From NCBI GenBank assembly GCA_973895155.1, contig OZ316891.1, positions 4,136,018 to 4,200,017 of the forward strand: a DNA stretch of 64,000 nucleotides, in the 5' to 3' direction. Position numbers and translations under genes: made by a program. The DNA comes from Marsupella aquatica (taxonomy: Eukaryota > Plantae > Marchantiophyta). The notes beneath the pieces are model-generated. The model was not told the DNA's origin. It saw only the letters and a list, made by a program, of their open reading frames with translations, and did no database searches. Positions within the stretch are counted from its first letter, which is position 1. Each line of letters starts with the position of its first letter. Shown here piece by piece: positions 25,541 through 52,600 of this stretch.

Positions 25541-27297
25541 AAAATGGATGGCACGGAGAACGGGCCGTTTGATGTGTCTCGGACAGGGTTAGAGAGGAGA
25601 GTGGCGGACGGAGTTGAGATCAGTTACAGGGCTCGGGGTAAAAGGAGTGGTTGCCGTATGTAATTCCAAAAGTTTAATCTCACCAGCAGACTAATTTGTC
25701 TGTTCAAAACGATGTGTCACTGGATGATACTTGGTCACTACGTTTACGAATCCTATTCCGGGAAGTGCGACGAACAGTCGTTTTGAGCGACGTTATTCCT
25801 TTGGGTAGTGCCGCTGCTCTGCATTTTATGCTGTGAGATTGGCCTTTCCCATATATTCTGGGTTTGCCTCTGTTTGCTTTCTCATTTTAGTAAGGGAGAG
25901 CATTTTCGAAGTGACCCGCCAATGCGAAGTTTGAATATAAGGTGCATTGTTCCTAATTTCTGGCAAGCAGAATGTGACATTTTGGTAAGATCTGTGGTAA
26001 AGAGAACCCGGCGAAGTTACTTTCCAATCTGGGAGGGAGTATCGAAAATAATTCCCAGTCTAAGAGAGTCGTGCAGATGCATTCTATCACCACTGATCAA
26101 CACGAGGTTGATGTAACAACAATCGCAAACTTCAAAAGAATTGGAAAAGACAAGCAGGAGGAGTCACCGTGCAAACCATACCAATGACGAGTCCCAAGTT
26201 ATCCCACTCCTAGACTGAACACATGAAGCCTGATTTCGAACAATACAGATGTTAGTTAGAAAAAGACACAGATCCTCATTGGCGGATCTTTCTGATGACC
26301 TTATTCCAGTATGTCTCTGACGCTCAGTCAAATTACTCGGTCCCCACCGTCATGAACAAATTTTTCACAAAAAATGGCAGCACATTTATTACACGTACAA
26401 GACGACGCCCAGTCAAATTACTCGGTACCCCACCGTCATGAACTCAGAAAAAATGCCAGCAGATGTATTAAACGTACGAGTACGACGCTCAGTCAGATTA
26501 CTCGGTACCCCACTGTCATGAACAAATTTTTCAGAAAAAATGCCAGCAGATTTATTACACGTACAAGTACGACGCTCAGTCAAATTACTCGGTACCCCAC
26601 CGTCATGAACAATTTTTCAGGAAAAATGCCAGGAGATTTATTACACATACAAGTACTGGGATGAAACTGCAGCCCTTCAGCCAGTGCGTAGGTTTAGGAC
26701 CACCTGAACCAAAAGAAAGAGACTTGGGAATGAACGCCTGGCCTTGGCATTCCTTTACTACGACACAATAATGCGGAAGGAGCTTTCCTGAATATTTAAA
26801 TGACAACTCTGTCCGCTTTAAACAATGAATAATGCCCAAATCTCACTTCGTTCAATCTGATCAACCGCTTGAACTGATATAGATATTTAAGTGATAAGCA
26901 TATCAGAATCAAGAAGATCACTAAGCCTAATGGATGCAAAAAGAACGTTGGTGACAGACAGTCCACAGGCTAAGCATGAGATTGGATAGCGCCAAGTTTA
27001 CCTCCGCTACTTTGTTCAATATCTCCTTCACATTCCAATTGGCAACATTGAGATCGGGTGCAAGCTCGAAACAAAATTGATAGTGAAGCTCAGATTGTGG
27101 TCTGAGGCGCTTTCGGAAGAGTGAGGCATGGATATCAAGCAAAACAAAATTACCTTTTGTCCAATGAATTTTCTCCCAGCAGAGTGGACAAAGTAAATTG
27201 TCATTATAGCAGGTGAACTCTAGAGAATCATTTTCCTATAGCATTCTTACCAACTCAGCATTTTACATTCCTAATTGGTGGAATCTCATGACCTTCA
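25541..27297. pseudogene. Decayed direct duplicate of the ALP1-like/HO1 segment, with the ALP1-like CDS deleted and HO1 exon 2-4 remnants on the minus strand
   Basis: 25541-25632 matches ~36634-36726, then jumps to ~38760 and stays colinear to ~40343. HO1 remnants include HCLKRTELSFKYSGKLL and VKEILNKVAE, with frameshifts and deletions. Confidence 0.9.
26320..26657. repeat. 4 x ~80-87-bp tandem array inside the decayed duplicate
   Basis: GACGC(T/C)CAGTCA(A/G)ATTACTCGGT...AAAAAATGCCAGCAGA units at ~26320, 26404, 26484 and 26571. Single-copy counterpart at ~39440-39530. Confidence 0.9.
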
Positions 27298-27914
27298 GAC
27301 ACAAATTTAGCAAGTGTACAAAATCGTAAGAGTCTGCTTTCAGTGAGTTGTACTCAGGACCTCCCGCTTACTGAACGGGTGCTCGAGCCAATTGAGTTAT
27401 AGAAGCACAAGAGCAATATTGCATAGTCATATAATTAGGGGTCCAATCTATCGGCTACCTTTTATGTAAGTGTACTGATCTTATACAGAAACCACCCACC
27501 AACTCGTGTATCTTGCTTACTTTATGCCATTTGATATTTCAAGCCTTCTTCATTTGCAAACTCACAAATAGTGCTTGTGAGTTGAAAAACCGAGCCACAG
27601 AGAAGCTATTAACAAATGTAATCCTCAATGTGCCATTGATGGGGCTACAGTGATGTGACTGAACGGAGAGACGTAGAAAGTATTTGCGAGTGGGATGGGC
27701 AGTCGGAAATTGTGCCCGCTTATAATAGTTGGCGATAGGATTCGGGAAAATCAATGTCAACGATACAGGGAGTTGGAGTTCTGTAAACCAAGATCTTAGA
27801 CTTCCTGTTCCAAATACATTGCATTGCATTGCATTACTTCCTGTAATACTGGCACCGTAAGCATTGAACTTAGCCTGTCTTTGGGTTCCATAGCTACTGC
27901 CTATAGCGTTCAAA

Positions 27915-30900
27915 TTACTGCGTTATCCTCTGGCTGTACTTCACATTGAATACTCGAATTGAATAATCTGCCCCACAGGATGCTAGCTGAAAAGGTTCAT
28001 TCCCTAAAAGTGCCGATCCATTTACGTGTGATGAATCAGACTTTCGGCAATGTACAGCATTTTCATCGTCAACTGGCATATCCCTCCAAGCTAATCTTTG
28101 AACAGCCGCCACATGGCAATTGAATCTATCAAACTTTTGCAAGCAGGACATGTCAAACTTCCAAGAGTTTTCGTCAGTAAAGGGTGATGATTCAGTTGGA
28201 CCAGTCCCCTTAGCTTCCGCCACATGAGAGATGTCTTTCACACTTCCGTGAAGACTTCCTTCCCATAATTCCAAAGTACCATCTTCCATACCCACAGCCA
28301 GCAGGAGTCCTGGACCCCATGCCAAGGCAGTGACACTACTCTTGAAGACAGGAAGAGATAACACATTCTGAACTTTGACTCCAATTTCAGTATCTCTGAC
28401 AGCCCAAATTTTAACAATCTTGTCCCTTGACCCTGTTGCAAAAAAGCGGTCACAGCAGCTCCAGGAGCAAGTCCAGATAATGCGCTTGTGAGCATCAATC
28501 TTCGTCACTAACTGATACGGAGGTGAGGACCCTGAGTCGTTCTCTGCAAGAACGACAACGCATTTCCACCATTTACAAGATTACATTACAAATCATGCCC
28601 ATCAATGTCCGGATTATTGGACACTAGATAAGGAGGTAAAGAGTCATACTGACTCTACAATTAACAGTCTTTACCATTTCAAGTTTACACCATAGATCAA
28701 ACGAATATTGGGTGACAGCGTTAAGAGAGCATTGTAGTGAACTAAAGATCGCTTTCAATTCCTTCAGCACTAGTACATTTTCCTAATCAAAGGATGGAAT
28801 GTACAGTGCCATATTTATAGCTAACTACAAGATCTTGCTACCAATTATCCACGTTTTGAATTTTCTGTCGCAATCAAGAGGAAATGGGAGGGCCTTAAGT
28901 TAAGTCCTTATGGATAAACATCCTCTAGGAAGCTTACAAGCACTGCTTCAGTTGTAGGTCCCACGTACCTGCTTGCACGCGTTCAAAGACGGATAGATGA
29001 CGATCTCTTGAAACGGACAACAGAAATCTATCATTGTGAGAGAACTCCAACTGGGTCACGGTAAGCGCATGTGCCTTCAGTTGCCCAGCTGGCCTCCAAA
29101 AGTCGACTTGCCACAACCATATTTGAGAAAAGGTTTCTGATTGTGCCTGTACTCCATTCAACAAGTTGAGAACAACAAAACGAGGCTGTCCCTTGGGAGT
29201 TCGAGCGGTTCTTTAATCAACCCAAGATGTTGTCCGTATATCATCACAAAGTAAGTCAACCAACAGTTTCCTATCCAAAATTGAGAAGCCTAAGAAACAG
29301 ACCTCTATGATGAGTTGACATTCAGGAAATACACCACAGATGCAGGAACGAGTGAAATGTCAACTAAACGAGATGCTATGTGGCTGCATTCGTACCTTAC
29401 ACGCAGTTGCAACAAACTTTCCAGCATGATCACAGCACATAGCAAACAGCTCATTGCCATGACCATAGAGCTTGTGTGACTCTGGCCACAGAGTATTTTG
29501 TGCAAGGTGCTCTTCAAATGGAGGCTCTGTCAGGACAGTAGGCACTGCCTCGGGGAATGCACCCATAGTATCCAACCCAGCCTCATCGAGGTCTTTTGTT
29601 ATTACAGACTCCGCCCCAGATAAACCCCTCCCTGCACGTATTGACAGTTCAGAATACTCCCTAACTCTGACGAGAGAAAAAGAACAGGAATATAGCACAT
29701 CAATGTGAAGTGTCAATACTGTAGTTAACGTCACCATCCAGTATAAATCATCCCACCTGATGCATATATTGGCTTCTGCGACAGGCCAAGAGCGGACATA
29801 TTGGCTCCAAGAATATGAACGTCATCTCGGTTGAGTCCATCGCTCTTTCCGCCAGTAGTGAAAGTCAGGGTATCTAGCAAAGCTCCAGGAGCCTCAAACA
29901 CCCTTGCAACCTTCTCTTCGGCTCCGCTAACGTAACGATGATTGCCTGGGCCTCTGACCATTGCCAAACAGTTCAAGTCATGGCCATGCACTTGAGGCCG
30001 CCCAATTTCGTGCCAGGATGTCCTGTCGGAGCTCTGGTCTTCATGGTTCCAATTCCAGCATGCAAATAGTCTGGCTGTCTACAAAGGAAAAGTCGTTTTG
30101 TCAGTGCCATGAGGAAATGAATAATTCATATCAACCAGGGCATCACAAGAAATCCAAGCTTGTCAGAGGGCCATATTCGCTGACACATACTAAAACTAAA
30201 GAAGGGCGTTCCTTTCAGCACCTGATCGTGGCTCACAGAGATTAAAAACTGGCCAGTTTTTGCCCATGCGAAGTCCACAACTGATGCTGCATGGCCCGAT
30301 GGAGTGAGTTGGGGCTGCCAATCTCCAGTTTGCAGATTCAGATTCTTCCAGAGATGGAGAGACCCGCCATATCCATTTGCGAGAATAGCATTACCTTGGG
30401 GACTCCACACCCCACCAAAGAATCCAAGTGCTGATGGTGCAAGTTCTCCAACAGTGACTTCATTTATCCATATTCCTGATGCAGCATCTGGCTTCCATAT
30501 CATCATCGATCTATCCATTGAAGCTGAAAGAACGCACATCGGCTCCTCAGCCCCTGGCTTTCTTTCATGGGCATTGCTGGCCTCCATCACTACATCAGAA
30601 ACACGAGGCTTCCATCTCACTGAATACACCCAATCCTCATGGCCCAATAGAAGAGACTCCATCGATACTTGCCAAATATCCTCTCCAGCTTTGAAAATTG
30701 GTCCATCTATGAATGTCCTTAGGCTCATTTCCAGCGTTTCTTCCCCCTCACTCTGGGCAGCTCGACGAGAGATCTTCCATATCCGAATCGATTTATCTTG
30801 GGAGGAACTGGCAAGAAAAACAGTGCCATTTGCATTACTGTGTGAGGCCGAAGAAAAGTCGACGGCACGGATCCAATCTTGATGACCCTTCACCTGGCAC

Positions 30901-33397
30901 GCAAGAGAGAACTGCATCCGAATGGCACCATTAAGGATGACAAAATGACAGAAAACTCTTTAATGTCCTAATCTTTAGACAAGAGACAAGCTAGGAATGA
31001 TCGATTATAAACAGTATACATAGAAAATCAAAGAGCTAGGTATGGACTAGACCACAGGCTCCGTCTGAAGATACTCGGAGAAGTATGGTTGGGTTGATGC
31101 ATCTCCCCTTGCATTCATGAAAAATCAATAATTTTGGGACTCGATTTCATTTCAATGATGCCTAACATGTACTTCGGGGTGGCTAGGAGGACATGTTCAC
31201 GAAACCAGTCCTAGGGACACTGTTAGATCCCTAGGGAAGAAAACAACCAAACACAACCAACTGAGAACAATGCTATGAGATAATCTGTAGTTTGCACAAT
31301 CTGTTTGAGTTTGGGAATTCATACCTCTCCCGTCAATAACCCCACATAGAAGTGAACATGGTTGTCAAGGCCACCCAAAGCTAGTAAGAATGTCTGCTGG
31401 CTGCCAGGAAGCGCAGTCAGTGACGTAGCAACCATGGGTCTTGAGCCCACAGGTATTGATTGTAGGAGGGAAATACTGCAGTCACCTGACTCGCAAACAA
31501 ACAATATTGTTTCAACTTAACGACTAGGCCCTTCGCGAATCAGAAACTAGGACACAAATCTCCGTACTCCAAATTGCCCAAATCATCTTAACAGTGAAAC
31601 CTTTATGTCAATCAGTCAACCTAATCCATTCACGACCTAATTACCCTTAGATCAGCTCCAATTGCACAGAACGGAAAGTGCAAAAGCTAAGTTGCAACTG
31701 GCTACTAGCCTAATCGTGTTAGAGGTAAGAGAGTACGTCAAAAAAGGTTGGAAATTCCTACCCTATCACCAAAGTAATGGGGAAAAAACACGTAAGCCTC
31801 ACCATTACCTTTTGTAGGCAAAGAGACATTCCAAATTCGAACACATGAATCTGAAGAAGTTGAAGATAACAGAGCCAGTGATGGTGAAACCATGTAGGCA
31901 GCTATGCACGTAACGGTTCTCTCATGTGCTTTTGGAAGTTGAGCTGCCATCCTCCACTGAAACAAAGCAGTAAGACAGGTGCTGAGCAACGACATGCGAA
32001 TTATTGGTCAAGATTCCCAACTAGAGAAATCAACCAAATCAACAATCTAGCACCTAAACCAACTGGCTTTGCTCAGTTGGCCAGAGGATGAGCCTAGAAC
32101 CGAGAGGTCCCAGGTTCAATCCTCCCTCCACACATAAGGGGTGTGGAGGGTATGTGTGTGTGTGTGTGTGTGGGTGGGGTGTAGTGGTGGGAGTATTGAT
32201 TATCTCCTCAGCCCTGGTTGCCCACTTTGGGTTCTGGTTTAATCCTCTCTTCCTCCTGGTCTGGGTCCCTGTCGATTCCCTGGGTATTGTCCCCTTGTGG
32301 CTGCCCTACATAGAAATGCATGCTCCCAAAGCAGGACGTCTATCCTCAGTTGGATGGGCCTGCTTTCGGTTTTCAAGGCAAAAAAAAACAATCTAGCACC
32401 TACTACATTGTACAGAGTATGTGACATGTAGAGGAGCCGGAAAACTTATTGAGAGTGTCTTGACTGCAAGCTTACATTGGCGGCTACTTTAACTGGATTG
32501 GGATTCGCTAGTCAATTCACTTCTTCCAGGTTATTCCGGGAGGAGCAATTGAACAAGAACACTCTGCAGAACAGTACCTTACTCTCGACCGATGAATATG
32601 CCCACAAAATGATGGCTCCATCTGCACTCCCAGAGAGTAAGAAGTGCTCGCTGGTCGACTCATCTGCATTGCCCAGCATCAGTTCCAGAAAACCGATGCG
32701 CTTGTCAACGAATAGAAGTCGTAAATTTGAAAGAACATATTTTCAACGGTACAAGCTGTAAACTCCATATATCCAAGGCAGCAAAGTAACACTACAAACG
32801 GAGGGAATTAATAGATAGAACAAAAAGAAAAAGTACCTGGATAAACTAGATTACTGACAGGGAGCCACAGGACACAGTTAACAAGGTCCTTATGGCCTGG
32901 AAGGGTCACCAAAATTCTGCTTTCCTGAGGTCCAGTTCCAGTTTTATGACAGCTATTAATTGAACTCCAACTTTGCCGACTATTGTGATATACACAAAAA
33001 TAAATGAAGCTTATGCAGAAGGGTAAGGTAGCTTCAGAATCAGAAAAACCTAAACCCTAAACCCTAAACCCTAAACCTCGAAACGTTCCTTCAAACACGG
33101 AAACGTATCACAGCAGGTGACACTTCAAAGCAGTCGAGCACACAATTGACGTACCTGAGGGGAAAAAATTGCCACAGTGTTGTGAGCTCCAAAAGCGACC
33201 AAATTGCAAGGACCCCATGAGACAGCACCGACAACCCTATTGCATCCAATCGCGATGAACGCCCTTTCTACTTCAACAGACACCTCAGCCAACGCTCCAA
33301 ATACTGCCTGCCTCTCCATGTGATCATGCCCTTGGTCGCCCTCCAAAATCATGCCTTCGCCCTCGTTTCTGAACAGCAAAGCCGTGTCCTGCTGCAT
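27915..33397 (-). CDS. ELP2: Elongator complex protein 2 (WD40), ~10 exons, with a chimeric N-terminus derived from the ALP1-like gene
   Basis: ELP2-type motifs FIAIGCNR, GHQDWIRAVDF, LLLGHEDWVYSVRW, LSASMDRSMMIW, ALGFFGG, HGHDLNC, YVSGAEEKVARVF, ANMSALGLSQKP, TLWPESHKLYGHGNE, AHKRIIW. GT-AG introns (e.g. exon 1 ends 33155; exon 2 32924-32837). Start uncertain: in-frame ATGs at 33397, 33352 and 33319 all lie in the duplicated segment. Confidence 0.93.
32057..32386 (+). mobile_element. tRNA-derived SINE, copy 2, antisense within an ELP2 intron
   Basis: Same body as copy 1 with a longer (GT)n tract; A-box-like TTGCTCAGTTGG, B-box GGTTCAATCC, poly(A); 16-bp TSD AACAATCTAGCACCTA (32041-32056, 32387-32402). 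Confidence 0.9.
33046..33077. repeat. Short interstitial plant telomeric (CCCTAAA)n tract / telo-box cluster in ELP2 intron 1
   Basis: AAACCTAAACCCTAAACCCTAAACCCTAAACC. Confidence 0.8.
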
Positions 33398-33869
33398 TGA
33401 TTCATTGATGACAGAAAGCCCCAGCTTCCGTCATTCTCAGACCTTGTCTCTCGTTCATGGAATCCAAATTGCTCTGCCCCAGAAATCCCTTCCAAAAGGG
33501 AATGGGAATAAGATGCTTCTCTCTCAACCATACCCTCTCTCAAGCCAAGATTACCACCACCACGACTGAACTTTACTGGCGAGCGTTAAGATATGCTCGA
33601 TCATATCTGAGGTCCGGATGATGCTCCTGGTGCTGCTGACGGAGATGATCATTTTGATGAATTGATCTCGCCTCTGTTTCATTGTGCATCACACCAGAAT
33701 TGTCGCTTCCATACTTGCCTTGTAATTGATCTCCACCCCGTTCCCCACTCTCCTCTCTATCCCTGTCCGGAGCCACATCAAACGGCCCGTCCTCCGTGTC
33801 ATCCATTCTCTTCCAAATCTCCTGTCCCTCCTCTGCCTTCCCCCTCACAAATCCGGCACTAATATTCCA
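33286..33869 (-). repeat. Inverted copy of the ALP1-like 5' region (36574-37156) forming the 5' end of ELP2
   Basis: Reverse complement is nearly identical to 36574-37156, with scattered substitutions and two small indels. The ORF track shows the same peptides on both (MVEREASYSHSLLEG, MQQDTALLFRNEGEG). Confidence 0.95.
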
Positions 33870-36800
33870 CACCTCAATTAGTGCGACCAAAAGTGTGACT
33901 TCTTGTGAATTGTAATTTGTGTGACATATAAACTAATGTGAGACAAAAAAATGTAAAGGGCTACCCAATTAGTGTGACTAACACTAATTGCAGTGAAGAG
34001 TGTAGTCAACATATTATGCACAGAAAAAATTACGGACTACTAAATTCATAATACACAAGCTTTTTGATAATAGACCCCCCAGAGAGTCACAGTCTAGAGG
34101 CTTCACTCTAGAAACCTAGAATTGAACTCTAGCTTCTCATCAAGATTTGTAATAGATAACTTTTTTGCCATAAAGATTGGATATATGTCATGACCATAAG
34201 TCACTATAGAGGCAGTGAAACAAAAACAAAAACTAAACTTTACACAACCCATCATTTGCAACTTTATAACTTGGAGTTGCCCTATTAATGACCATTGATG
34301 CTTTTGCCAGAGTTGTTTTTAGTATCATCTCCAAACATTGAACTCTAGCCTATGGTTTAAAGCATTTTCTCCAATTCCACCTAAAGTTGCACCTAAAATT
34401 GATGTCCTTGTTTGTCTCTTGATTGGTTTCACTCATCAGAATTTTCAGAGTGGGTGGGAACACTATCCTTGTTTATTTCTTCACTGGTTTAACTAATCAG
34501 GACTTTCAGAGATCTTGGGAACACTATCATTGTCTGTATCCTTGTTTATCTCTTGATTGGTTTCACTCATCAAGACTTCTAGAAAGGGTGAGAATGAACA
34601 GATATAGCAAGATGATCTTGGGCTTTCCAAGTCGAGCTGCAAATGACAAGGACCCCTCAATCCCCCTTTTATGACATGCTTTGGTCTCCCACCACTTAAA
34701 CGGCCACTAGCCATATAAAAGGGGGAAGTGTCCAAGACTTGTCCTTTTTCACTTTCCTCTCATTCTTCTCCTCCAGTTCCATATTGCTCCACAAATTCAG
34801 GAAATGATACTGTTTATGGTGAAACCTGGTGGACCAGGTTTTTGTCATGGCTAGTGGTGGTTCAAGTGGCAAGGGGCCCTTTCCTAGCATAAGTCCGGCT
34901 AGAGACATTGTGGTATCAGCTAAAGCCCAAACCCTCTTAGCACAATAGATTCCTTTGCAGAATAGAAAACATTTATGCACCTTGCTTATCCCACCCTAGA
35001 TATTCATGTTATGCCCTTGGTGCCATCAAGACATATGGGTGTAGGGCAAGCACATACAATTGCTCAGACAATTTGTGCTATATCTGGGGCTTGAATGGTA
35101 AACAATATCAATTAACAAATACTTGTGTTTGCATCTTGTTGAAAACACCACTGTTCTTTGTTTTGACTAGAAGTGGTGATGTGGGTGCACTTGGTGATTC
35201 TGGAAAAGAAATCCATGGGGTTTGAAACTAAAACTTATTTTGGGACGCATAATCATCAAGTCACGGGTCCCAAGCTCCCATGGACCACCAAAATATGGTC
35301 CACCGGAGCATTGTGTACAACATGGTGGTTCATTATGGCCTCAAACTCAAAATTTTCCTATGCTTCTCATTTGTAAACGATAGTTGTAGTCTTCACAAAT
35401 TATTTTATTTTGTCTCAAAAATTGAACTATGAATGGAGACAATTTTCCTGAGGATTTCATATGAGTGTGTTTGATACTTGTGTGCATTTGAAACCGGTAA
35501 ATAATGTTATCTTTGGGTTTAGGGTTTGTGTGTATTTGAAATAGATTTGAGATTGTTAAATTCAAGCACTACTTAGTGCACTGTAAGGTAAAACACTCAT
35601 TGAGGGTCAGTTTAGAGAATTTTGTGTATAGAGAACGGGATAGAGAACAATAGGGACTTGAAGGTTGGTAAGCTATCAATGATAGACACAAAATAATTAT
35701 GCTAGGAAGATAATTGCAAGGTTCAACATGAGTGATAGCAAGTGAGTAATAAGGGAGTGTCACAAATGCTCACACTACTAAGGGCTAGGTTCCATGGGGC
35801 ACATGTGTGTGAGCATGTTTGAGCCAATAAGTTCACAACTTTTCCGGGGAGTGAGGAGTGTATAAATACGGTAATAGGATTTTCCCTCACATTGGGGTGC
35901 CTTGGATAGTGACACTTGAAGTGCATTTTCATTGGCTCTAAAGTCAAAACTCATACATTTAAAATATTGTGTACACCTTGGCATAGGGTGTATTTGGGCC
36001 CCAGGGGTGTGGGGTGATTGTTACTCCCTGCCCCTGGCCCATGGAACCCTGCCCTAATAATAGATACCTACAGAGCACAAAATTCCATCGGGAGAAAATC
36101 GACACCAATGAATTGGAAACGATGAAGGATGGCCGCTTCAAGAGCAAAGAAACAGAACTGGTAGATTTGGACTCAGCAAAGAGCACGGCATGGAGTCGGA
36201 ATGACAATTGCAATGCAGGGCTCACTTCTTCCAATAGAACTGTGCTTGCCACTCTACAAAGTACCCGAACACACATAGATTTGGACTGATTCTTCTTTGC
36301 GAGAGGAGCTTCTGACTAACACCACCGGCAAAGATGGGTTCACTCCAATTCTCTTAATTGACCGGCAAAGATGAATTCTCTCCAGTTCTCCGATTTGAGC
36401 AAGTCGTCGAAGTCTTGGACTTCATGGGCCCCAATTCGTAGACTCATGGAGTGAGATTTCATCACTTTAAAGATTTTTTTTTCTGGATTAGGTTATTAGA
36501 AAGACCCGCCAGTTGTGTGCAACAGGACTAGTCAATTCCTTAATATCAAATTGATCGTGGATTGATTATGCTCTGGAATATTAGGGCCGGATTTGTGAGG
36601 GGGAAGGCAGAGGAGGGACAGGAGATTTGGAAGAGAATGGATGACACGGAGGACGGGCCGTTTGATGTGGCTCCGGACAGGGATAGAGAGGAGTGTGGGG
36701 GACGGGGTGGAGATCAATTACAAGGCAAGTATGGAAGCGACAATTCTGGTGTTGCACAATGAAACAGAGGCGAGATCAATTCATCAAAATGATCATCTCC

Positions 36801-36909
36801 GTCAGCAGCACCAGGAGCATCATCCGGACCTCAGATATGATCGAGCATATCTTAACGCTCCCCAGTAAAGTTAAGTCGCGGTGGTGGTAATCTTGGCTTG
36901 AGAGAGGGT

Positions 36910-38445: not shown

Positions 38446-39630
38446 TGTTCCTGTGTTGTGAAGGAGCTGCTGTTGCTCGAAAACTCTTTTAATGGGCTGA
38501 CCACCAGCAATTTGGTCAAGGTATTGTAAGTTATATGGACTATGCTCTTGCCCTTCTGTGCTCAGATTTGGACATAACTGCAGAGAAACGCGAATCATTG
38601 TCAAATTGCAGGCCTGGGTTGTTACGTCTGCAACAAGTATATCATGCAAACACTACAGTTGTGTCCTACTTGTTAGAGGAGAACGTCCATCACTAAACAC
38701 AGCAGTTAAGCCAATGTACAGATTTATCTCCGACTGCTGGGTACTGCCTCCTTAATGAACTCGGGGTAAAAGGAGAGCTTTACGTATGTACATCGAATGT
38801 TTAATCTTACCAGCAGACCCATTTGTCTGTTCAGAACGATGTGTCACTGGATGAGATTTGGTCTCAATGTTTACGAATCCTGTTTTGGAAAGTGTGTAAT
38901 AAGAACAATCATTTTGAGTGATTCTATTCCTTTGGGCAGTGCTGCTGCTGTGCCTTTATGCTGTGAGATTGGCCACCCCATACATCTGGACTTTTGCCTC
39001 TGTTCGCCTTCTCGTTTTAGTACGGGAGAGCATTTTCGAAGTGAGCCTATACTGCAACGTTTGAAATTTAAGGTTCAGTGTTTCCGGCAAGCAGAATGTT
39101 GTAGTAAGACTTTTTTGTCTGATCAGTGATAAATTGAATCCGGGCGAAGTTACTTTCAATCTGGCAGCGGTATCGAAGATAATTCCCAGCCTCCGAGGGT
39201 CATGCAGATGCATTCTATTTACCACTGATCAACACGAGATTCATGTAACAAGAATAGCATACTTCAAAAGAATTGAAAAAGGTCAACAGGAGAACTCACC
39301 ATATAAAACCATTTCAATGGGAAGGCCAAAGCTATCCCCTTCCAGACTGAACAAGTAAGGTCTGATTTCGAGCTTTACAAAGGTTAGAAAAAGACAGATC
39401 CAAACCCGGGATGATTATGTAACCATTCCAATAGGTCTCTGATGCTGAGTAGAATAACTCAGAGCCCTACTATGTATGATCGATTTTTTAAGAAAAAATG
39501 CCAGCAGATCTTTACATGTACAACTACTGCGATAACACTGCAGCCCTTCAGCTAGTGCGTAGAGGTTTAGGACCACCTGAACCAAAAGAATGAAACTTGG
39601 ATATGTACGTCTTGTCTTGGCTTTCCTCTA

Positions 39631-41748: not shown

Positions 41749-43907
41749 TGGCTGGCTAGCTGGCTGGTAACCTCTCTAGGGAATTGCTTCAATCAAAATC
41801 TGCCAGTAAATTGCCTGAAATCAGATTCCGGTACTGAGCCTACCGGATGGTGCAGAGAGGGGCTAAAAATTGCTCGCGACAGGATTGCCAAGAGACAAAC
41901 AGGGGAAATTAAGCACTGGACTAGACACTGCTGCTGCAAAATCAGTCAGATCAATCCCATCCAATTTCTCCACAAGGCCAACAGATTCACCGGAGAGGGG
42001 GACAGCTTCCGAATTTAAAAGAGGCGACCACAGAGATGGTGGTTCTAGAGAGCTGCAGGCAACCTACATGCGCAACAGGACAGTCTTTGAAAGGAGACGA
42101 GAGCTCACAAAATTCTATAGATAAATCAAAAGCCCGTGCTGCCTCGTCTTGCAGTCTCGCTCGCTTCCTGCAGACACAGCAGTAAGTTGCCGTAATCACC
42201 TACCAACTCGACGAGCAAGGAAGCAGGCAAAATACCAGCACCGCAAGTTTTGAGGCCCCTTTGCTTCCACAAGCTCTCAATCAATGCACTAGGGAAGCTT
42301 CTCAGGCTTCTGCTACAGTAGTCTAGTACAAGTGCAGTGGAGCCTAAAACAGACGGAGTGATTCGTTGCCAAGTTGCCTTGAAGAGAAGGAATCTCAGCA
42401 GTGGCTCCGCCTTCCAAAGCCCGAAAATGAACGAATCAATGAATTCATTTCCCACACACTACGGTCCCGTGTCGTGGTGGGCAATCACGTCTCCCCCAAC
42501 CACATATTCCTACTAACGACAAGCTATAATCCCCAACAATCCCAAACAGCAGAACCTAGAACCCACAGTCCCACACTATCCGAACTGCACCGTCACTAGG
42601 GTTTTCGGGCTCCGCTAAAACCGCTGACTGCGGAACTCCTCCGAACATCCGGCTATGGCGGCAAAGCACCATAAGGCATAAGCATTCTCCTACAGGTATC
42701 GTGGAAGTTTCACTGCGTTTTGATTCAACATGGATGCGTCTGAACTACACATCCTGGACTGCCCCATGAGCTCTTCTCACCGCCCATCTCCAATCCACAA
42801 ATCAATCTCCAGAGAGATATGAGTACTGCGGAATTGTAATTGTTAGCGTGGGTCCAAACTGGGCAAAGTACAGTAGGGCCGCAATGACCAAAACAGGGTA
42901 ACCCTGGTTAAAGAAGGCAAGGACTGCGTTGTCCCGAAAATCTCGGGGACTGCAAACGATATGATTCTGGGTTTGGATTTCTGAGAATAGTTTGGCCCTA
43001 TCTGTGGTCCAAGCACTACTGCACTCGCTCACTCACTGACCAACCAGCCTTCCCTGCTTGGAACACGCCTAGCTCCTCGTCGGCCTTCCATCGCTTTGAG
43101 CCAGAGAGAACGTTGGTGTGAGGTGTTTGGCCACTGTTGCTCACCCTGACCCTGGTGTAGTTCTTCTCAGAATTTTGCCCTGAGTCATTTCTGGATCGAA
43201 TGAATTGTCGGCGTATGGAATTGAAGCTAGATTGAGCGCTTTGCGGTAAGTGTAGGAGAAGGAATTTCGAATTTAGAGCTTCTAGAATTGGAGTTGATGT
43301 AACCCATTGGAGTCCCCAATTCTTTCGCTCTTGAGTGAACGATGGAAGTGTCTACTCACTTAGGACTACGAAACAATGCTTTCATGCTGAGAGTTCTGAC
43401 GTTCAGATAAAGAAGGTGGATGCACTTACTCGAAAATGTGTATTCGAAGAGAGTGAGAATAGTTAAACTGAGAGCATTTTCTGTCACGGTATAAATAGCA
43501 GCATCTCTGATTGTGTGTCGAGGTTACAGCTCGGAAGTGACTTTGACATTGACTTTTCTCAAGTTTTATGTCCTGATCTACCGCTGCTGACAAGTTATAT
43601 AATTCTAGCTGTGCTTACTATTATCCCTCTAGAACAATGGAACTGTTCTGTTGATGATGGCACCATCGTATCACACTTCACAGTCGGTACAATTAGGTTC
43701 GCATGTGTGCAAGAAGAGCTTTCTCGAAACAAGATCTAAAGCAAATGAGGTGGGGAACAACGAGCAGCAGTCAATTCTGAGAATGAGGAAGATTCTGATA
43801 ATGAACGTTGGTTCGCGTCCTTCTTATCGATCATCGATCATTTCGGTTACCATACATTGAATTTTAAGTTACCATCGCAGGTCATTACCTCCTACGCATG
43901 ATGTTTC

Positions 43908-44540
43908 CGGCCTTAGAAGGCGGAGCCACTGTGGCGATCTCTTCTCTTGTTCTAGGCTCTACTGTACTGAACTACTGTATCTGAAGGCTGAGGAGCTCGC
44001 GTCGTGCTTTGATTGAGACCTTGTGGAAGCAAAGGGGCCTCAAAACTTGCCGTGTTGTCATGTTGCCTGCTTGCTTGGGTCGTCGAGTTCTCGGTCATTA
44101 TGAATCCCATATATTCGTCTCAAATGAATGCCTCGGTAGATCACGCAACTCACTGTTGTGTCCGCAGGAAGCGAGCGAGACTCTCAAGAGAATAGACAGG
44201 TGGGGCCTTTAATTTGTTCAAAGAATTTTGCGAGGTCTCATCTCCTTTCACTGGCTTTCCAGTTGCTCGCATTCAGTTTGCCTCTCTAGAGCCACCCTCT
44301 CTTTTGGATAGCCTGTTTTAATCCTTGTCTCGGAAACTGTCCTCCTCTCCGGTGAATTTGTTGGCTGTGTGGAGAAATTTTCATGGGTTTGATTGACTGA
44401 TTTCGCACCAGCAGTTTCTAGTCCAGTGCTTAATTTACCCTGTCTATCTGTCGGGGGAGTCCTGTCGAGTAATTCTTATAACTCTGCATCATCACGTAGC
44501 CTCTTTGCTGGAATCTGGTTGTTGGCAATCTGAGTGCTGG
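43908..44540 (+). repeat. Third, CDS-less copy of the HO1/Der shared 5' leader
   Basis: Aligns with the reverse complement of ~41800-42420 (GAAGGCGGAGCCACTG..TTGTGGAAGCAAAGGGGCCTCAAAACTTGC..GCAGGAAGCGAGCGAGACT) and with 49300-49585. Similarity stops shortly before the position of the ATG. Confidence 0.85.
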
Positions 44541-44865: not shown

Positions 44866-44935
44866 TGTTCTGTTCTGTTCTGTTCTGTTCTGTTCTGTTC
44901 TGTTCTGTTCTGTTCTGTTCTGTTCTGTTCTGTTC
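44866..44935. repeat. (TGTTC)14 microsatellite
   Basis: Perfect pentanucleotide run ~145 bp upstream of the ATG at 45080. Confidence 0.95.
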
Positions 44936-45079: not shown

Positions 45080-46453
45080 ATGGCGGGCCAGCAGATTGCC
45101 AAGCGAATTCCCCGGATCAAGTTTCCCGACCGCCGTGCAGCTGCTGCTGCCGGCTCTGGTGCTCCACCTCCGCCAGGTACCACTCTCTCCCTCTCTCTCT
45201 CTCTCTCAGCACTACCGTAGAGGCAGAGTATTCACTTTCCTGTCATGCTTTGTCGATGCTTTCATCGTCCGAAGGCTTCAACGTAGCCGCATTCCTGCTC
45301 TTCTCCCCTTCCATTGAGGGACTTCGTGTTGGTAGGCGAGGCAAGGCCGCCCGCTGATACGGAGAACTTCCCTTTTTACGCTCTCATGTTGGTTTGTGAG
45401 TGCGTTCGTCGACCTCTTTTCTTGACAGCAGGTAGACTTGTGCGGTTCTCATTGAATGTATTTTTGAATGGGGTCTCAATTTCGACTTCACCGCGAAGAT
45501 TGCGTTTTCTATGACTTGGCTCGTGATCTATCACGTTCTTTACACAAGTAGCGTCAATCCAAGCTACAATTTCACCTTGCCATCTAAAGAAGTATGGCTT
45601 GAATAATGGTTAATTCGTCAGTTCCGTCTCTGCAGTCTAGCGATTCTTCATTCATTGGATTTACTTGCACTAGGGTAGCATTTGCGATAGAGTTGATGTG
45701 GTTGGTATCCAATTCTGTCAATGTTAGCTTCAGTGATAGGCTACTCTTCAGGAATTTTGAATATGCCTTGAAAATCTCTTAGGGAGAATTCAAAACGGAA
45801 GAGAAGGTTTCTTCATAAATAGAGCTCCTCGTTTGCTCCTTCTCTGTTGTAAAATTGTACATAATAACATCCACAAGCTCGGATGTTGCGTCCATATGAA
45901 ATAGTTTGCGGTAGATGCTTTCATGTATAAGTGATAGGTAAATGGAAGACTCGAGTTACAGTGCTGGTGAATGAATTTGTTCTCTGATGTGCCAATAAGA
46001 GCAATGTCAGTGATTTGTAATTTGGTTTCGTATAAATGCACCTGTTATCAAAATTGTAGTTCAGAGTTGTCCTAATTGGAGCTCACGTGTAGAGCTGCTG
46101 ATTGTGCATTGATTTGTTCTCAGCAAGTCAAAGCGTTCCCAAAACTTCAACAGCCCCACCAGCAAGTTCAGCAAGTTCGGGAAGTGTTGGGGCTGCTTCA
46201 ATTCAGCCAAGGCGACCCAAAGTCTCGAAAGAAGAGATTGATGCCGTGCTGGTACTGTAGTCTGCCCCCAATAATAACATGACCTTTTAACGTAAGAGTT
46301 TAGTTTCATATCTGGTTAGGTTCTCCGTATCAAGCTCACAACCAAGAGTCTGACTGGTCTAGGAGTATCGAAGAAGGTGACTTGAGCGACGTGATATGAG
46401 TATTAAACTTCGAGTTTTATTTTTGTTTGCAGCTTGGTGGTGTTGTGTATTGA
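45080..46453 (+). CDS. Small mitochondrial KGD4/MRPS36-like protein (2-oxoglutarate dehydrogenase adaptor family), 81 aa; exons 45080-45176, 46124-46251, 46433-46453
   Basis: Spliced product MAGQQIAKRIPRIKFPDRR-(A/S/P-rich linker)-SIQPRRPKVSKEEIDAVLLGGVVY*. The N-terminal P.IKF and C-terminal S.EEI..V.LGG motifs are typical of the family. GT-AG introns with consistent phases. Confidence 0.8.
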
Positions 46454-49400
46454 TGTTGGATACCCATCATTTCCTCCGGCAGGGAGCTTAGCTTGTATTT
46501 TGCTAAGTATGCAGATGAGCAAGCAATAAAGTTGTTTTCAGGTGTGCCCATGTTAACCCTTCACTCCCTTTTCAGAGCAAGCACTTAGTATTCCACAGTC
46601 TGCCACAGAAGATTTGATTCACTCTGGGTTTTACGTCCTCTCTAGGCCGAATACCCACATGTTTCACTGCAGCAGTAAACCACATGGTTCACCGAAAATA
46701 GTTATTTCGTGTCGTGGATTAAGGGACCACCATCCCAATGTAATGAGTCACTCATTTCATTACCTGTCTGTCAATGAGCTCTGTATGAATTTGTGATTCT
46801 CTATGCATCATGCCAGTCAGGAGATGGCTCGAGGATGGACGTTGGAAATGCTGGACAGCAAGTTCAGAGCTATATATAGCCGCTTTATGGGGATGATGGT
46901 TTTTGAATTTATCACATCTTGTGTAGTGCACTGTCAAGCATCGTTTAGTGAAATCTGAATGACCTGTGGTTAGAAAGAGATCCCAGGGATTTAGTCACTA
47001 TGGTTGTGGCGATGTCAGACAACCAAATATCATGAAGTCAGTGTCGTTTAGGAGTATAACATGTTCCGAGTTATTCCCGATGTTCTTTGCACACATTCCT
47101 TTTTGTACTACTTTGTCGCAGTTAAAGCGGATTCCAGACAATAACATAGAAAACTCTCCATTTGCACGATCACAATCAACTAATCTATAGATGCTCTGCC
47201 TTGAGTTTTAAAAGACCGCTGACGTCTTGATCACAACAAAAGCGCGTCAGACTAGTTTTGAATACTCTCCATTTGCACTATTTTCCGTAAGGCACACAAA
47301 TCATAAATGCTTTCAAGTTGATCTGCAAGGAGTGATGATTTTATCAGCAACATGAATGAATTTCAGAAGATCCAGCTCGTGGAACTTGCCATGGCTTGCT
47401 ACGGCACATCGGTGTACAGCTTCAACACCATCCAGTTTCTTCAAATGTACATTCCACCAATCGAAGAAAATACTTGATGAGAGAGAATAATGGCAGATGC
47501 GACGACACGTGAAAAACTATCAGACAAGCTGGAAAGCCTTTGAGAGTTCTTGAAATCTACATTCCACCAATCAAAGTAAAAAAAAATTAAGATCGGTGGC
47601 AGAACGAATGATGGCAGATGTGAACAAACCTGGAAAATCGAGAGCGCAAATCTATACTGTCAGTGATATGACCGAAGATCTCTGAATTTGAATGAAATTT
47701 ATACCTTAATTAGGGAGACCCATACAATTCCGAGGGATAAACATGGAATCACAATTTTGCTAGATTCAGTAAAATTTGATAGGAATGATGACAGATTCTG
47801 AATTCATAAAAGTTGCCGGCACTTCTAGGACAACGCTATAGGGCAGGCCTGTCTTCACACTTTTGGACGATGTGGCCCAAATGTAACCTGTTAACTGTAT
47901 GCTAAATTACCCTTGCTAAGATCACTTCTTGTTCCTAAAATATATTGAGATCTGTATTGGGCTAAACCAGTTTCCAAATCAACACAGCCAGAGTTCAAAT
48001 AGTAAATTCAATGTGTCACACATTTAAATGGCATTATATGCTACATCTCAAACCCGTGCACTCAAGACATCTGTTGCCAAGCGCAAGTTTGCCATGTGCT
48101 GACCCGGCCATGATAGCTTAGACTTTTTTGACCACCATGGTCTTAACATACGTATTATATATATGGAAGCACCTAGCCCTCTTATAGAATACTAGTCATT
48201 TGGATGCCATTCTACTGCATTTGGTTCACAATCTTTGTAGGTACATCAATATAGTGTAAATTATTTTGGCCTTCAACTCGTTGTCCTTGCACAATGTTAA
48301 ATAAAACCAAACATGTATTATATTCCTTCCCAGCATCAAAGTATACATAAGGAAAGGATACACAAATCAATCCCACTACACTTTGGTTCAACATAACGGT
48401 GGCTGTGGCTGCATTAGGGGATCTCAAACCTGAAGTCCTGCAAAAAAAATCCTTGGCTCAAAAGCACGAGTTATGGACTTTGGTCACAAGTGGTAGGAAC
48501 AAGCTTGAGTGAGTCCTCCACTTTACTTCTCAGAGAACCTGCGTGACCGCCAAAACCCAGTGGTTTGAGCACCCAACTATGCCATGAAGACTAACCCATG
48601 AGTTCTACTCACTGCCCATTGCCAATCTATAAATCAATGAACTGTGGCATTCTCCACAACTGGCAGCGTCAGGGTCAAACTGGGTCATAGTATAGTAAAA
48701 TGGTGTAGTTGCAATCGGGACTACCAATGTGTAAGCCCCCCCTTCCCCCCCCCTTTGCGGCGGCAGCCTGGCCTGGGGGTCATGAGATTTTGTAACCTGC
48801 CTAGAGGGTTAACCAAGTTCAGGCACAATTTTCAGATCATAAGTAAACTTACACTCTGGGCTTATGCTGGTTATAATTCATGGCCACTAGGGTTTAGAGT
48901 TTAACCACCAAACAACCCCCACCCACCCCCCCCCCCCAATCCCCCGGGGCGGGCTCACTGCTCTTGGGGATCCCCTTGGGGCCATGGATTACCCTACACC
49001 ATAACCCTGGTGAATAGGGCAATTGTGGGTTAAGGATAGCCAATGGCAATAGGAACTCGGTCACAAGTCAATATTAACCTGTATACGAAATGGAGGATGG
49101 GGAGGGGTTCATCATTAATTCTATTTGAGAAGAAAAGCACCTTAGTAATGTAATATACGGTAATTGGAGGACAAATTAGTAAAAAGCTGTCTCTGGGATA
49201 CTTTTGGCCCTCTCTGTACAGTAGACTCAATCACTGACCAACCAGCCCTCCCGAGTGTGTCTGTCTTGTCTCTATGTCTCTCTTTGCTCTCCCATCGCAA
49301 TCTCCTTTCACTGGCTGTCCTGTGGGCTGTGGCTTCACCTCTCCCTAGAGCCACCTTCTCTCTGGAACCTGTTTTGAATCTTCTTTCGAAAAGCTGTCCA

Positions 49401-49652
49401 TGCTCTCTCTTGTGATTTGTTGGCCCTGTGAAGAAATTTTGGTGGGATTGATAGACTGATTTCGCACTAGCAATGTGTAGTGCAGCGCTTGATTTCCCAT
49501 GTCTGGGGAATCCTGTCGAGTGATTCTTATCGACTCTCGGCATCATCAGGTAGCCTCTTTGCTGGAATGTGAGTGTTGGCAATCCACTGGTGGATGTTGA
49601 TCGAAGCAATTCCTTAGTGAGGTGACCAGCCAGCCAGCCAGCCAGCCAGCCA

Positions 49653-52600
49653 ATGGCGCTCTCCTTAGGGGAGCTTGTGCAGCAGAAGGCGGTGGGACTG
49701 GGATTTAGTGGGCTTGGCAATTTTACCGCATTCCGGGGAGTGAGGGCCTCCTTGAAACCCTCTGCTCTGTGGAGCAATTCTCGGCAAAGAATTTCGTCTG
49801 TGGGGGCTTTACGGGTGCAGCAAAGCCATGGCTGGGCAGATTTTGGAATCCATGAGAACTCTAGAACTGGACTTGGGGGCTCTTCGGTGGGTGTGGCTGT
49901 CCGGGCAGGGAAAGGGACTGAGGAAGATGCTGACGATGATGATGATGAACCCCTATCGAAAGAGATGCTAGAGCAGGAGGCAGCTCGTGTTGCGCAACAG
50001 TACGCCCGATCTGTGGAGGAAGAGCTTCGCCAGGGTGAGCCTCATGACTTTTTATGTTCGTTTGTCGATCGTGCATTCTTTTATTGGAGATTGTACGCCG
50101 ATTCCTTGGAGTATCCTTACCTGATGAAGGTTTTAATATGTTTCTCGCTAAAATAAATGAATCATTCGCCAGAGGATGAGGCGGAAGCTTCGGGCGGAAA
50201 GAGGAAGAAGAGAGGACGGAAGGGAAGCTGGGACGAGGGAAGCGAACTGGACGTTCCAGATCATCTCCTTCCTAAAGTGGCCATTGTTGGGAGGCCAAAT
50301 GTAGGAAAATCAGCTTTGTTCAACCGTCTGGCCGGGGTGAGTTTCATATCGCATACCTGGGTGGACCTCGTAATCAAGTTTTTTGTCATGTGTGTGGTTT
50401 CGACAGTAAGCTTGCAATTTCCACTCTTTCACTGATCCTTAGTGGTACAGGGTGATGTTGCAATTGTACATGATGAACCAGGTGTGACTCGCGATCGTCT
50501 ATACACTCGAGCTTTTTGGGGTGTGCATGAGTTTCTGTTGGTCGATACTGGGGGCGTTTTGACAGTCCCTTCATCTTCGAATATGGGTTCAGATGCACTG
50601 GCTATCACCAGAGGTGGTGGCTCAGATGCAGTGACTCAAGCATTGAAAGAGGCAGCAGCTGCTGGCCTGCCGTCTTTGATTGAGAAACAAGCAGCTGCTG
50701 CTGTGGAGGATGCTTCTTCTGTCATCTTTGTGGTTGACGGCCAGGTAAATTGCTTGCCTGTTGATATCTCACTGCTTTGTAACGCTGTAATCGTGACACT
50801 GTATTTAGTCTGGCGCTCTTGAGCAGCGGATGCTTTTGTTGAGTGTCTTTTTCTGGTCTTCTTAGAGTTCTGAGTTTGCTGCATTCGGATCAGTTTTCTC
50901 TCCCTCTCCAGGCGTAAGAATTCTTTGGTTCGATTTTAGTCGAAACTAGAAGACGAAGGCTCATCATACCTGCTATTCATAGATTCAGAGCTTCTAACCG
51001 CGTTTGAATTTAACAGGCTGGTCCCAGTGCAGCAGATACTGATATTGCGAATTGGTTGAGGAGGAAACACTCTAACAAAAGGATAACGCTAGCAGTAAAC
51101 AAGTGTGAATCACCAACCAAAGGGCGAATCCAAGCAGCCGAGTTCTGGGGTTTGGGGTGAGCAGGCAGTCTGTTGCAATTGTTTTGTGTATACGTTCAGC
51201 TGCCTTCTTCAGTTTTTTTTAATTGAAAGCTTAGAAATTGATTGTTTTCTGAAATGTACTCAAGATCTAATGTATTTCCAGGATACTGGAAAATAAAAAC
51301 ACTTTTCTTCTTGCTGTAGACCCCATGCCCTACATAGCTTTGTTTATCTTCACCGATGTTTTTTCCAGAAGAAATATCACTCGTTCCTTTTTAGCAATTT
51401 CTATGAAAGGGTAATACGTGAAAGCAAAAGAAGTAATTGAAACAAGGAAAAAAGGCTAGGGGAAAGATTATGTTGAAATCTGATGGCAAAGATTTTTGCC
51501 GAGCAAAACAAGGCAGCTTTTGGATACATGTTGAACTTACTTTTCTTCCCAGTAATTTTAAAGTTTTCACTCAGGGTCTTCCGTGTACTAAAGACAATAT
51601 CCTACATGTATCTTGGGATCAGGTTTACTCCTATTGCCGTCTCTGCAATCTCTGGCACTGGAACTGGAGACTTGCTGGACAGTGTCTGCTTGGAGCTCCA
51701 AACACCGAAGGTATAAAGGAGGTGGCTGTTTGGTTTGACGAAAAGAAGTTTGGGTTATTGCTGTGTGTAGTCCTGAATTTTGAGTATCTTAGGATAGGTA
51801 TTCCAGTTATTTATGGGTTTTCTTGTAAGTGAAGGTGCCAGACGATTTCAAGGAGGAAGAACGGCCTCTGGGTATCGCCATTGTTGGTCGACCAAATGTT
51901 GGAAAAAGTAGCATATTAAATTCGTTGGTCGGTGAGGATAGGACCATTGTCAGTCCAATAAGTGGAACTACACGAGATGCTATCGATGCTGATTTTACTG
52001 GCCCCGATGGACAGGTTGGTGGTATCCCCTGCCTAGCAATACATTATTGTACAGAATCAAGATTTGTGAGGAACCTATGCAAGTCACAGGTCTATCTCAA
52101 AGCTACATTCAAGTCATACAACGAAATAGGTCATAGTACTAGGTGTTCAATCCGCAAGGTCCCAGGAAAGCAGAGAACATATATCTTAGTTTTCATTCAG
52201 GTCCTTGAAGTTTCAAATTTAGGGTTTGTCTCATGTACGAGGATCTCAGAGCAAGTAAATTATGGCATTTGCAGATGTACCGTCTTATAGACACAGCTGG
52301 AATTCGGCGGAGAACAGCTGTTGCATCTGCTGGTAGCAGATCAGAGTATCTTTCTATTAATAGGGCATTTAGGGCTATACGACGCTCTGATGTAGTGGCG
52401 CTTGTAATTGATGCCATGCAGTGTGTAACAGAGCAGGTAAATTGGATTTTCTCATTTTGTCATCTATGATACATATGTTTGGTATTGTTGTTGTCAATTG
52501 TCAGGGATAGAGTATATCGTTCAGACGGTCTGATGTCACCTAGAGTATGAATGGTATGGTCTCGATTCTCAATCTCGAACTTCGAGACTCAGAAGAGTGC

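What the first reader, a model, noticed from the sequence alone, without database searches (positions are those of the whole stretch)
25541..49910. Local hotspot of 5'-module shuffling: several duplications of different apparent ages within 25 kb
Seen: a very similar inverted duplication (ALP1-like to ELP2), a more diverged inverted duplication (HO1/Der), an orphan third leader copy, and a decayed direct duplicate of ALP1-like/HO1. Both chimeric junctions are in frame at the boundary between an N-terminal extension and the conserved body. Inference: recurrent microhomology-mediated template switching rewires leaders and targeting signals of housekeeping genes here while leaving them intact. 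A role for the DDE-intact Harbinger-derived nuclease at the centre is speculative.
Basis: inference. Interest (0 to 1): 0.7.

Follow-up and report, generated by a model that had tools for sequence, protein, structure and literature searches.

The report
Liverwort genes wearing neighbours' front ends
In a liverwort, two housekeeping genes carry copies of their neighbours' front ends in place of their own: the GTPase Der has heme oxygenase's leader and predicted chloroplast-import signal, and ELP2 has a recent piece of an ALP1-like gene; both were likely left by DNA-break repair that copied nearby sequence.

Summary
All four duplications are real, and there is a fifth (HO1-side intergenic DNA copied in front of Der). 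Direction is now fixed. HO1's transit peptide and the ALP1-like N-terminus are native in other liverworts, while Calypogeia, Marchantia and Riccia Der have unrelated N-termini and lie on other contigs. So Der swapped its transit peptide for HO1's, at the predicted cleavage site, and the copy shows some coding constraint. The 585-bp ALP1-to-ELP2 copy is young (14 substitutions), is bridged by independent contigs, seems absent from one low-depth relative, and is bracketed by an 8-bp direct repeat. Corrections: there are two age classes (about 2% and about 11-30%), not several. The long ALP1::ELP2 fusion is not in frame (derived 1-nt deletion); only ALP1's internal Met codons can start ELP2. Nothing supports a role for the ALP1-like nuclease, whose DDE is ancestral in non-flowering plants. 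'Hotspot' is untested: no genome was held. Most likely mechanism: templated break repair plus survival of functional junctions. Transit-peptide capture is a known kind; replacement in an old nuclear gene, with a second 5' capture 13 kb away, is a new variant.

The parts
25535..27297 (+). Decayed direct duplicate: 98 nt of the ALP1-like 5' end (36628-36726) joined to the intergenic and HO1 3' region (38760-40343); the ALP1 body is missing; deletions and an 85-nt tandem expansion
   Evidence: HO1 exon remnants by tblastn
27939..33319 (-). ELP2-like WD40 gene; body complete (825 of 862 residues of homolog P0393 covered); start codon likely ALP1-derived (33319, or 33352 / 33397)
33286..33869 (-). 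Young inverted copy of the ALP1-like 5' part, replacing ELP2's own 5' end; derived 1-nt deletion near 33427 and 2-nt insertion at 33689; bracketed by an 8-bp direct repeat (TGAGGTGT on the - strand)
33869..36000 (.). Spacer of high-copy repeats; a repeat-family member is cut off at 33869, the outer junction of the copy
   Evidence: depth table; loose ends
36574..37156 (+). Donor module: ALP1-like 5' region from 63 nt before the first ATG (36637) to the conserved MxRQAVFGALA motif
36637..38445 (+). ALP1-like domesticated Harbinger nuclease gene, DDE intact; first 75 codons frame-disrupted against Marchantia; predicted GC-AG intron 36725-36865
39631..41748 (-). HO1 heme oxygenase, complete; native transit peptide 41748-41485
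41749..42426 (-). HO1 5' leader, donor of both leader copies
42757..43054 (+). Intergenic, promoter-like segment U, also found directly repeated in front of Der
43904..44530 (+). Third copy of the HO1 leader, without ATG or transit peptide; closer to the Der copy than to HO1; lies upstream of the small gene at 45080, possibly inside its 5' UTR intron
   Evidence: intron position inferred from splice-like sites
45080..46453 (+).
   Evidence: sequence; no Pfam hit on single exons
48589..49252 (+). Direct copy of segment U (two blocks, 82%)
49283..49910 (+). HO1-derived 5' leader and 86-codon transit peptide on Der
49911..53540 (+). Der (EngA) GTPase body, complete (Calypogeia residues 128-686 all covered)

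Best explanation
Der carries a copy of HO1's 5' leader and predicted transit peptide, and ELP2 carries a recent copy of the ALP1-like gene's 5' part; both likely arose when a DNA break near the gene's start was repaired by copying nearby sequence in inverted orientation, and likely persisted because each junction left a usable protein. Shown: the copies, their direction, whole gene bodies, two age classes. Inferred: an old episode (11-30% divergence) brought Der next to the ancient ALP1-HO1 pair, gave it HO1's leader, and duplicated flanking DNA directly. The third leader and segment U are then the two halves of one direct duplication with the small gene between them. A separate young event (2.4%) deleted ELP2's promoter and start between a repeat and codon ~12, and filled the gap with 585 nt templated from ALP1. 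ELP2 would now start at an ALP1 internal Met. Precision at module boundaries is put down to selection, not to a targeting mechanism.
For: Direction: window Der N-terminus scores 230 against Calypogeia HO1 (z 43) and 28 against Calypogeia Der (z 0.7); Marchantia Der scores 28-29, Riccia Der 42. HO1 exon 1 aligns over 100% to Calypogeia and both Riccia HO1. The ALP1-like ORF is 98% covered by Marchantia and Riccia proteins. Linkage: ALP1-like and HO1 have consecutive locus tags in both Riccia species; Der is on a different contig from HO1 or ALP1-like in Riccia, Marchantia and Calypogeia. Constraint: one in-frame 6-nt gap in 258 nt of transit peptide, p 0.136 against 0.27 in the leader, dN/dS 0.54. 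Young event: run X1 contigs bridge both ELP2-side junctions with 0 differences (records 2 and 6) and both ALP1-side ones (records 5 and 6). In X5 an ELP2 contig leaves the window at 33290, and one unbranched contig holds the module without the ELP2-side flank (records 29 and 30). 8-bp bracket: 39 of 20000 random pairs at tolerance 2, 81 of 20000 at tolerance 5. Third leader and Der copy are the closest pair (0.205 against 0.238 and 0.279; HO1 differs alone at 36 sites, third copy 16, Der copy 27). Templated insertions at microhomology-marked deletions are a described plant repair outcome (PMC10923293, passages).
Against: The repair pathway is not shown. The outer junction has only 1 nt of overlap, and the 8-bp bracket also fits a target-site duplication; it was noticed after the fact. 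The passages seen give no size range that covers a 585-nt filler. X5 contigs have depth 3-4 and may be wrong or incomplete; X1 may be the sample the window came from. ELP2 function is uncertain: 12 ATGs lie upstream of the first open in-frame ATG, and only 63 nt upstream of ALP1's ATG were copied, so no promoter is evident. dN/dS 0.54 rests on 35 differences and was not tested against 1. The order of the old events is not determined; their divergences (0.11-0.30) overlap but come from differently constrained sequence. One junction in three is in frame by chance.
Confidence: 0.6

Rival explanations
1. Transposon-driven: the young module was placed by a transposase or by alternative transposition of the repeat next to it, leaving an 8-bp target-site duplication; the older copies arose likewise.
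For: 8-bp direct repeat in target-site register; a repeat-family member ends at the outer junction; the spacer is high-copy repeats.
Against: The module has no terminal inverted repeats. The 8-mer appears native to both the repeat family and ELP2, so it need not have been made by insertion. No repeat longer than 5 nt brackets the five old modules tested, while both SINEs keep 15-16-bp duplications.
Confidence: 0.17
2. Ordinary background: local duplications of this kind occur all over this genome, and this region stands out only because it was picked. This is compatible with the best explanation's mechanism and denies only the hotspot.
For: Picked after the fact. The old copies may be one episode, leaving two or three events in all. 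A likely deleted ELP2 remnant lies elsewhere, so genes here are duplicated at other places too.
Against: In the 64-kb self-BLAST, every match that I could tie to a gene lies in 25.5-49.9 kb; the rest look like tandem or dispersed repeats (not all classified). One window is a weak control.
Confidence: 0.4
3. The DDE-intact ALP1-like nuclease cuts near its own gene and drives the rearrangements.
For: DDE triad intact; its gene is the donor of two of the copies.
Against: DDE is kept in all land-plant groups outside angiosperms (PMC4671723, passage) and in the Marchantia and Riccia orthologs. The gene has stayed beside HO1 since the split from Riccia. No terminal repeats flank it, and I saw no TAA/TTA duplication at the junctions printed. 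A eukaryotic protein made in the cytosol has no obvious reason to cut near its own gene (general knowledge).
Confidence: 0.04
4. Assembly artefact: the inverted repeats are misjoins.
For: X1 collapses the core of the young repeat into one mixed contig (record 5); no single contig spans the locus.
Against: All four junctions of the young repeat are bridged by single-copy-depth contigs. The copies differ at 14 sites, split 7 and 7 against X5. Old copies are 11-30% diverged, and diverged versions of the decayed duplicate and third leader are in runs X3 and X4.
Confidence: 0.03

Closest known systems
Transit-peptide capture from an existing nuclear gene (SODcp-RPL32 in Malpighiales, also accD, rps7; PMC8429499, passages; exon shuffling, PMC7456531, passages)
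   Same: A plastid protein uses a transit peptide copied from an unrelated plastid-targeted gene.
   Different: Those recipients were newly transferred organelle genes without a signal. Der is an old nuclear gene whose relatives have their own N-terminal extension. The junction lies inside an exon, not at an intron; the leader came along; the donor sits 8 kb away.
Deletions with templated insertions (filler DNA) from polymerase-theta end joining in Arabidopsis (PMC10923293, passages)
   Same: Deletion plus insertion copied from nearby DNA, with short overlaps at the junctions.
   Different: Here the insert is 585 nt from about 3 kb away, is inherited, and supplies a start codon. The pathway is inferred only.
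Soybean I locus chimeric genes (bioRxiv 10.1101/2025.01.21.634198, passages)
   Same: Repeated local duplications and inversions put 5' fragments of neighbouring unrelated genes in front of another gene, several times in one region.
   Different: There the products are small-RNA loci in a CHS repeat cluster; here they are whole protein-coding housekeeping genes.
ALP1 family of domesticated Harbinger transposases (PMC4671723, passages)
   Same: DDE_Tnp_4 domain; DDE kept as in non-angiosperms; immobile.
   Different: The window's protein groups with Marchantia and Riccia proteins that have a long acidic N-terminal extension; its first 75 codons are frame-disrupted.

Membership tests
Transit-peptide capture from an existing gene | Recipient N-terminus homologous to a donor's N-terminus, not to orthologs' N-termini | tested here: met
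   230 vs Calypogeia HO1, 28 vs Calypogeia Der
Transit-peptide capture from an existing gene | The peptide is ancestral in the donor lineage | tested here: met
   Calypogeia and Riccia HO1 share it
Transit-peptide capture from an existing gene | In-frame fusion to an intact body, kept under constraint | tested here: met
   constraint is moderate (dN/dS 0.54, no significance test)
Transit-peptide capture from an existing gene | Transcribed and imported into plastids | not testable with these tools
   no transcript or localisation data; the VRA cleavage-site reading is recalled, not computed
Templated-insertion repair (TMEJ-like) | Deletion of resident sequence with insertion copied from nearby | tested here: met
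   the native ELP2 5' end rests on one low-depth contig and on family N-termini
Templated-insertion repair (TMEJ-like) | Microhomology at the junctions | tested here: inconclusive
   5 nt inner, 1 nt outer, 8-bp bracket; old junctions unreadable
Templated-insertion repair (TMEJ-like) | Dependence on polymerase theta | not testable with these tools
   historical event
Pack-type transposon or retrocopy | Terminal inverted repeats or poly(A) tail on the module | tested here: not met
   intron sequence is retained in the copies
Pack-type transposon or retrocopy | Target-site duplication | tested here: inconclusive
   8 bp at the young module only
ALP1-like domesticated Harbinger nuclease | DDE_Tnp_4 domain with DDE triad | tested here: met
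ALP1-like domesticated Harbinger nuclease | Immobile: conserved neighbour, no terminal repeats | tested here: met
   adjacent to HO1 in two Riccia species
ALP1-like domesticated Harbinger nuclease | Nuclease activity or PRC2 association | not testable with these tools
   none
Rearrangement hotspot | Rate above the genome-wide background | not testable with these tools
   no genome held

The most novel reading that the evidence does not exclude
The ancient ALP1-HO1 pair acts as a landing pad: housekeeping genes that move in (Der, ELP2, perhaps the small gene at 45080) lose their own promoter, start and targeting signal and are re-equipped with copies of the residents' 5' modules. It happened at least twice independently within 25 kb, and the younger swap still differs between close lineages, so 5'-end replacement can be studied with both alleles in hand.
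Probability: 0.3. Interest if true: 0.75.

Novelty: new variant of a known kind. Interest (0 to 1): 0.52.

Why it matters
Transit peptides diverge so fast that their origin is rarely traceable, and one study found no donor for newly gained ones and called de novo origin the commonest route (PMC10375062, passage). Here donor, recipient and by-products all lie in view, and the recipient had its own N-terminal extension, so signals are being replaced, not only gained. It shows how a gene can survive losing its 5' end in a rearrangement. The young ELP2 swap, with an apparently unswapped relative, allows a direct test of what such a swap does to expression and translation.

Tried and rejected
Whole genome: none held, so no genome-wide count and no search for a second Der. 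RNA: no RNA holder listed. Staggered-break inversion for the young repeat: it predicts ALP1's native upstream on the ELP2 side, but X5 record 30 stops matching at 33869; rejected on low-depth data. One large inversion splitting an HO1 duplicate into the 25.6-27.3 kb piece and the Der leader: it predicts the native Der 5' end near 27.3-27.9 kb; Calypogeia Der residues 1-127 match nothing in the window and no further HO1 sequence lies there; unsupported, though decay could hide it. Spliced or retro origin of the decayed duplicate: its break is 2 nt into the predicted donor, but there is no acceptor AG at 38760 and HO1 intron sequence is kept. My first guesses of a 6-nt inner and 3-nt outer microhomology were cut to 5 and 1 nt. 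Extension of the third leader into transit-peptide codons, or upstream of 42426: scores at control level. A 19-nt motif of the ELP2 paralog's 5' side: no match in the window at up to 4 substitutions. KGD4 label: no Pfam hit on single exons; the atlas did not answer. Earlier findings: none. Literature: 9 searches; two searches returned 0 papers; none of the listed titles or abstract starts describes this locus or a transit-peptide swap in liverworts. The library is partial, six papers were read as passages only, and no supplements were opened.
Full report
Setting. The window is eukaryotic and intron-rich. Its proteins are closest to liverwort records: HO1 exon 1 is 79% identical to Calypogeia fissa, a Der exon 95%, and the ALP1-like protein 70-73% to Marchantia and Riccia. 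It is likely a leafy liverwort. No genome is held.

Observation. Self-BLAST and alignments confirm all four duplications. A fifth was missed: 42757-42875 and 42980-43054 recur directly at 48589-48697 and 49192-49252 (scores 89 and 56; best of 60 control windows 32 and 28). So 42757-44530 and 48589-49585 are collinear direct copies with the small gene between them. Divergences: young repeat 0.024 (SE 0.006); HO1 leader to third copy 0.23; HO1 to Der leader 0.27; third copy to Der copy 0.205; four parts of the decayed duplicate 0.11, 0.13, 0.17 and 0.23; segment U 0.30. That is two age classes. The old values come from global alignments with many gaps and are rough.

Der took HO1's front end. 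The window's Der N-terminus (86 aa) scores 230 against Calypogeia HO1 (z 43; 0 of 300 shuffles reach it) and 28 against Calypogeia Der (67 of 300). Marchantia Der scores 28-29; Riccia Der scores 42 (1 and 8 of 300), as does an unnamed Der at 41 (0 of 300), weak matches that give no long alignment. Both Calypogeia Der records have an unrelated 110-residue N-terminus. The same peptide on HO1 aligns end to end with Calypogeia and both Riccia HO1. So HO1 is the donor, and the swap is absent from Calypogeia. A small tree places the Der peptide with leafy-liverwort HO1 peptides (100/100) but does not resolve the order inside that group. The shared block ends right after V-R-A-G, where HO1's conserved part begins and just before Der's acidic stretch shared with Calypogeia; reading VRA as the cleavage site is from recall. 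The 258 coding nucleotides carry one in-frame 6-nt gap, p 0.136 against 0.27 in the leader, and dN/dS 0.54 from 35 differences: moderate constraint, not formally tested. The Der body is complete (residues 128-686 of 686). ALP1-like and HO1 are consecutive loci in Riccia fluitans (R1flu_001353/4) and R. sorocarpa (R1sor_023813/4). Der lies on a different contig from HO1 or ALP1-like in both Riccia species, Marchantia and Calypogeia. So Der and this pair were brought together in this lineage; which side moved is not known.

ELP2 took the ALP1-like front end. The copied block is native to the ALP1-like gene (98% query cover by three liverwort proteins; MERQAVFGALA motif in them). ELP2 family members start a median 19 residues before the G-x-N-R motif (130 of 150 listed hits had the motif). 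The ALP1-derived ATG at 33319 gives 24, a normal length. The body is complete (825 of 862 residues covered; no stops in the exons matched to P0393). In run X1, contigs with 0 differences bridge the inner junction (33179-33368) and the outer one (33828-33935), and both ALP1-side boundaries (records 5, 6). The collapsed core has depth 26.8 against about 17 for the flanks. X1 may be the window's own sample, so this checks the assembly, not the population. In X5, an ELP2 contig matches up to 33290 and then has 265 unlike letters, and a single 1495-nt contig carries the whole module without the ELP2-side flank (records 29, 30; depth 3-4, so tentative). Using X5 as outgroup, 7 substitutions fall on each copy, 5 listed ones are private to X5, and both indels are on the ELP2 copy. 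The event is thus about as old as the split from that lineage. X3 and X4 hold the window's outer junction at roughly half the depth of the core, next to a diverged haplotype.

The long fusion is broken. The derived 1-nt deletion near 33427 puts the first ALP1-derived ATG out of frame; only 33397, 33352 and 33319 are open into ELP2, behind 12 upstream ATGs. Five of these would be removed if a predicted GC-AG intron (33718-33576; 36725-36865 in ALP1) is spliced. Whether this ELP2 is expressed is unknown. In favour of its use: in X1, depth over the ELP2 body is flat at 15.8, and the other ELP2-like contigs match only short stretches; one has the same depth (21.1; 34.4 in X2) at exon 1 and at the 3' end, which suggests a mostly deleted remnant elsewhere (inference).

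Junction signatures. Inner overlap 5 nt (33286-33290, from X5), outer overlap 1 nt with a repeat-family member that ends there. An 8-bp direct repeat brackets the module; random pairs reach this in 39 of 20000 (tolerance 2) and 81 of 20000 (tolerance 5) trials, but it was noticed after the fact. The 8-mer seems native to both the repeat and ELP2. This fits two broken ends aligned on a shared 8-mer and then filled from a nearby template, and it also fits a target-site duplication. None of five old modules has a bracket over 5 nt. One 82-nt deletion in the decayed duplicate has a 4-nt overlap.

Mechanism. Best reading: break repair with templated copying from DNA a few kb away (the kind described in PMC10923293, passages), then selection of junctions that leave a working protein. 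Two or three events suffice: an old episode at HO1/Der with the direct duplications, and a young one at ELP2. The third leader is closest to the Der copy and shares segment U with it, so it is likely the other half of a direct duplication and not a separate capture. The nuclease idea has no support: DDE is kept in land plants outside angiosperms (PMC4671723, passage) and in the orthologs, and the gene has not moved.

Comparison. Capture of an existing transit peptide is known for transferred organelle genes (PMC8429499) and exon shuffling is cited as a route (PMC7456531); another study found no donors and called de novo origin commonest (PMC10375062). Repeated 5' capture from neighbours in one region is known at the soybean I locus (bioRxiv 10.1101/2025.01.21.634198). 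All were read as passages only. Nine searches of a partial library found no report of this locus.

Verdict. The Der swap is well supported (about 0.9), the ELP2 swap real (about 0.9) but of unknown function, the mechanism likely (0.6), the hotspot untested. New variant of a known kind; interest 0.52.

Noticed in passing
window 24191-24513 and 32057-32389: Two copies of a SINE-like element, 4.4% apart, with A-tails and 15-16-bp target-site duplications; the second sits in an ELP2 intron.
   Followed up: partly
window 36637-36865: The ALP1-like N-terminus matches Marchantia in frame 0, then frame 1, then frame 0; the disruption is shared by all copies. A predicted 141-nt GC-AG intron would restore an ORF: possible intronisation of coding sequence.
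   Followed up: partly
runs X1-X5 over window 33087-33271 and 27556: Contigs of a second, 3-9% diverged ELP2-like piece elsewhere in the genome; likely a largely deleted remnant.
   Followed up: partly
runs X3, X4 over window 25500-27300 and 33085-33935: X4 shows two haplotypes at about equal depth, one like the window and one several percent apart; X3 also holds both types: an allopolyploid, hybrid or mixed sample.
   Followed up: no
window 44090-44140 and 40748-40875: A 42-nt insert in the third leader copy matches a small repeat in HO1 intron 1 (82%, inverted).
   Followed up: no
window 26319-26656: An 85-nt unit expanded to about four tandem copies inside the decayed duplicate; single in the source.
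   Followed up: no
window 33045-33077 and 44866-44935: Telomere-like AAACCCT repeats in ELP2 intron 1; a (TGTTC)n tract upstream of the small gene.
   Followed up: no
window 13937-16454 and 33930-34006: A repeat family with TAGTGT..ACACTA palindromes, with an inverted pair at 13975-14165 / 16267-16454 and a member at the outer junction of the young copy.
   Followed up: partly
window 3687-5018 (-): Long ORF with a weak bHLH match at its end (E 0.005).
   Followed up: no
one search list: No record named Calypogeia among the 120 listed ALP1-like hits, although its HO1 and Der were found.
   Followed up: no
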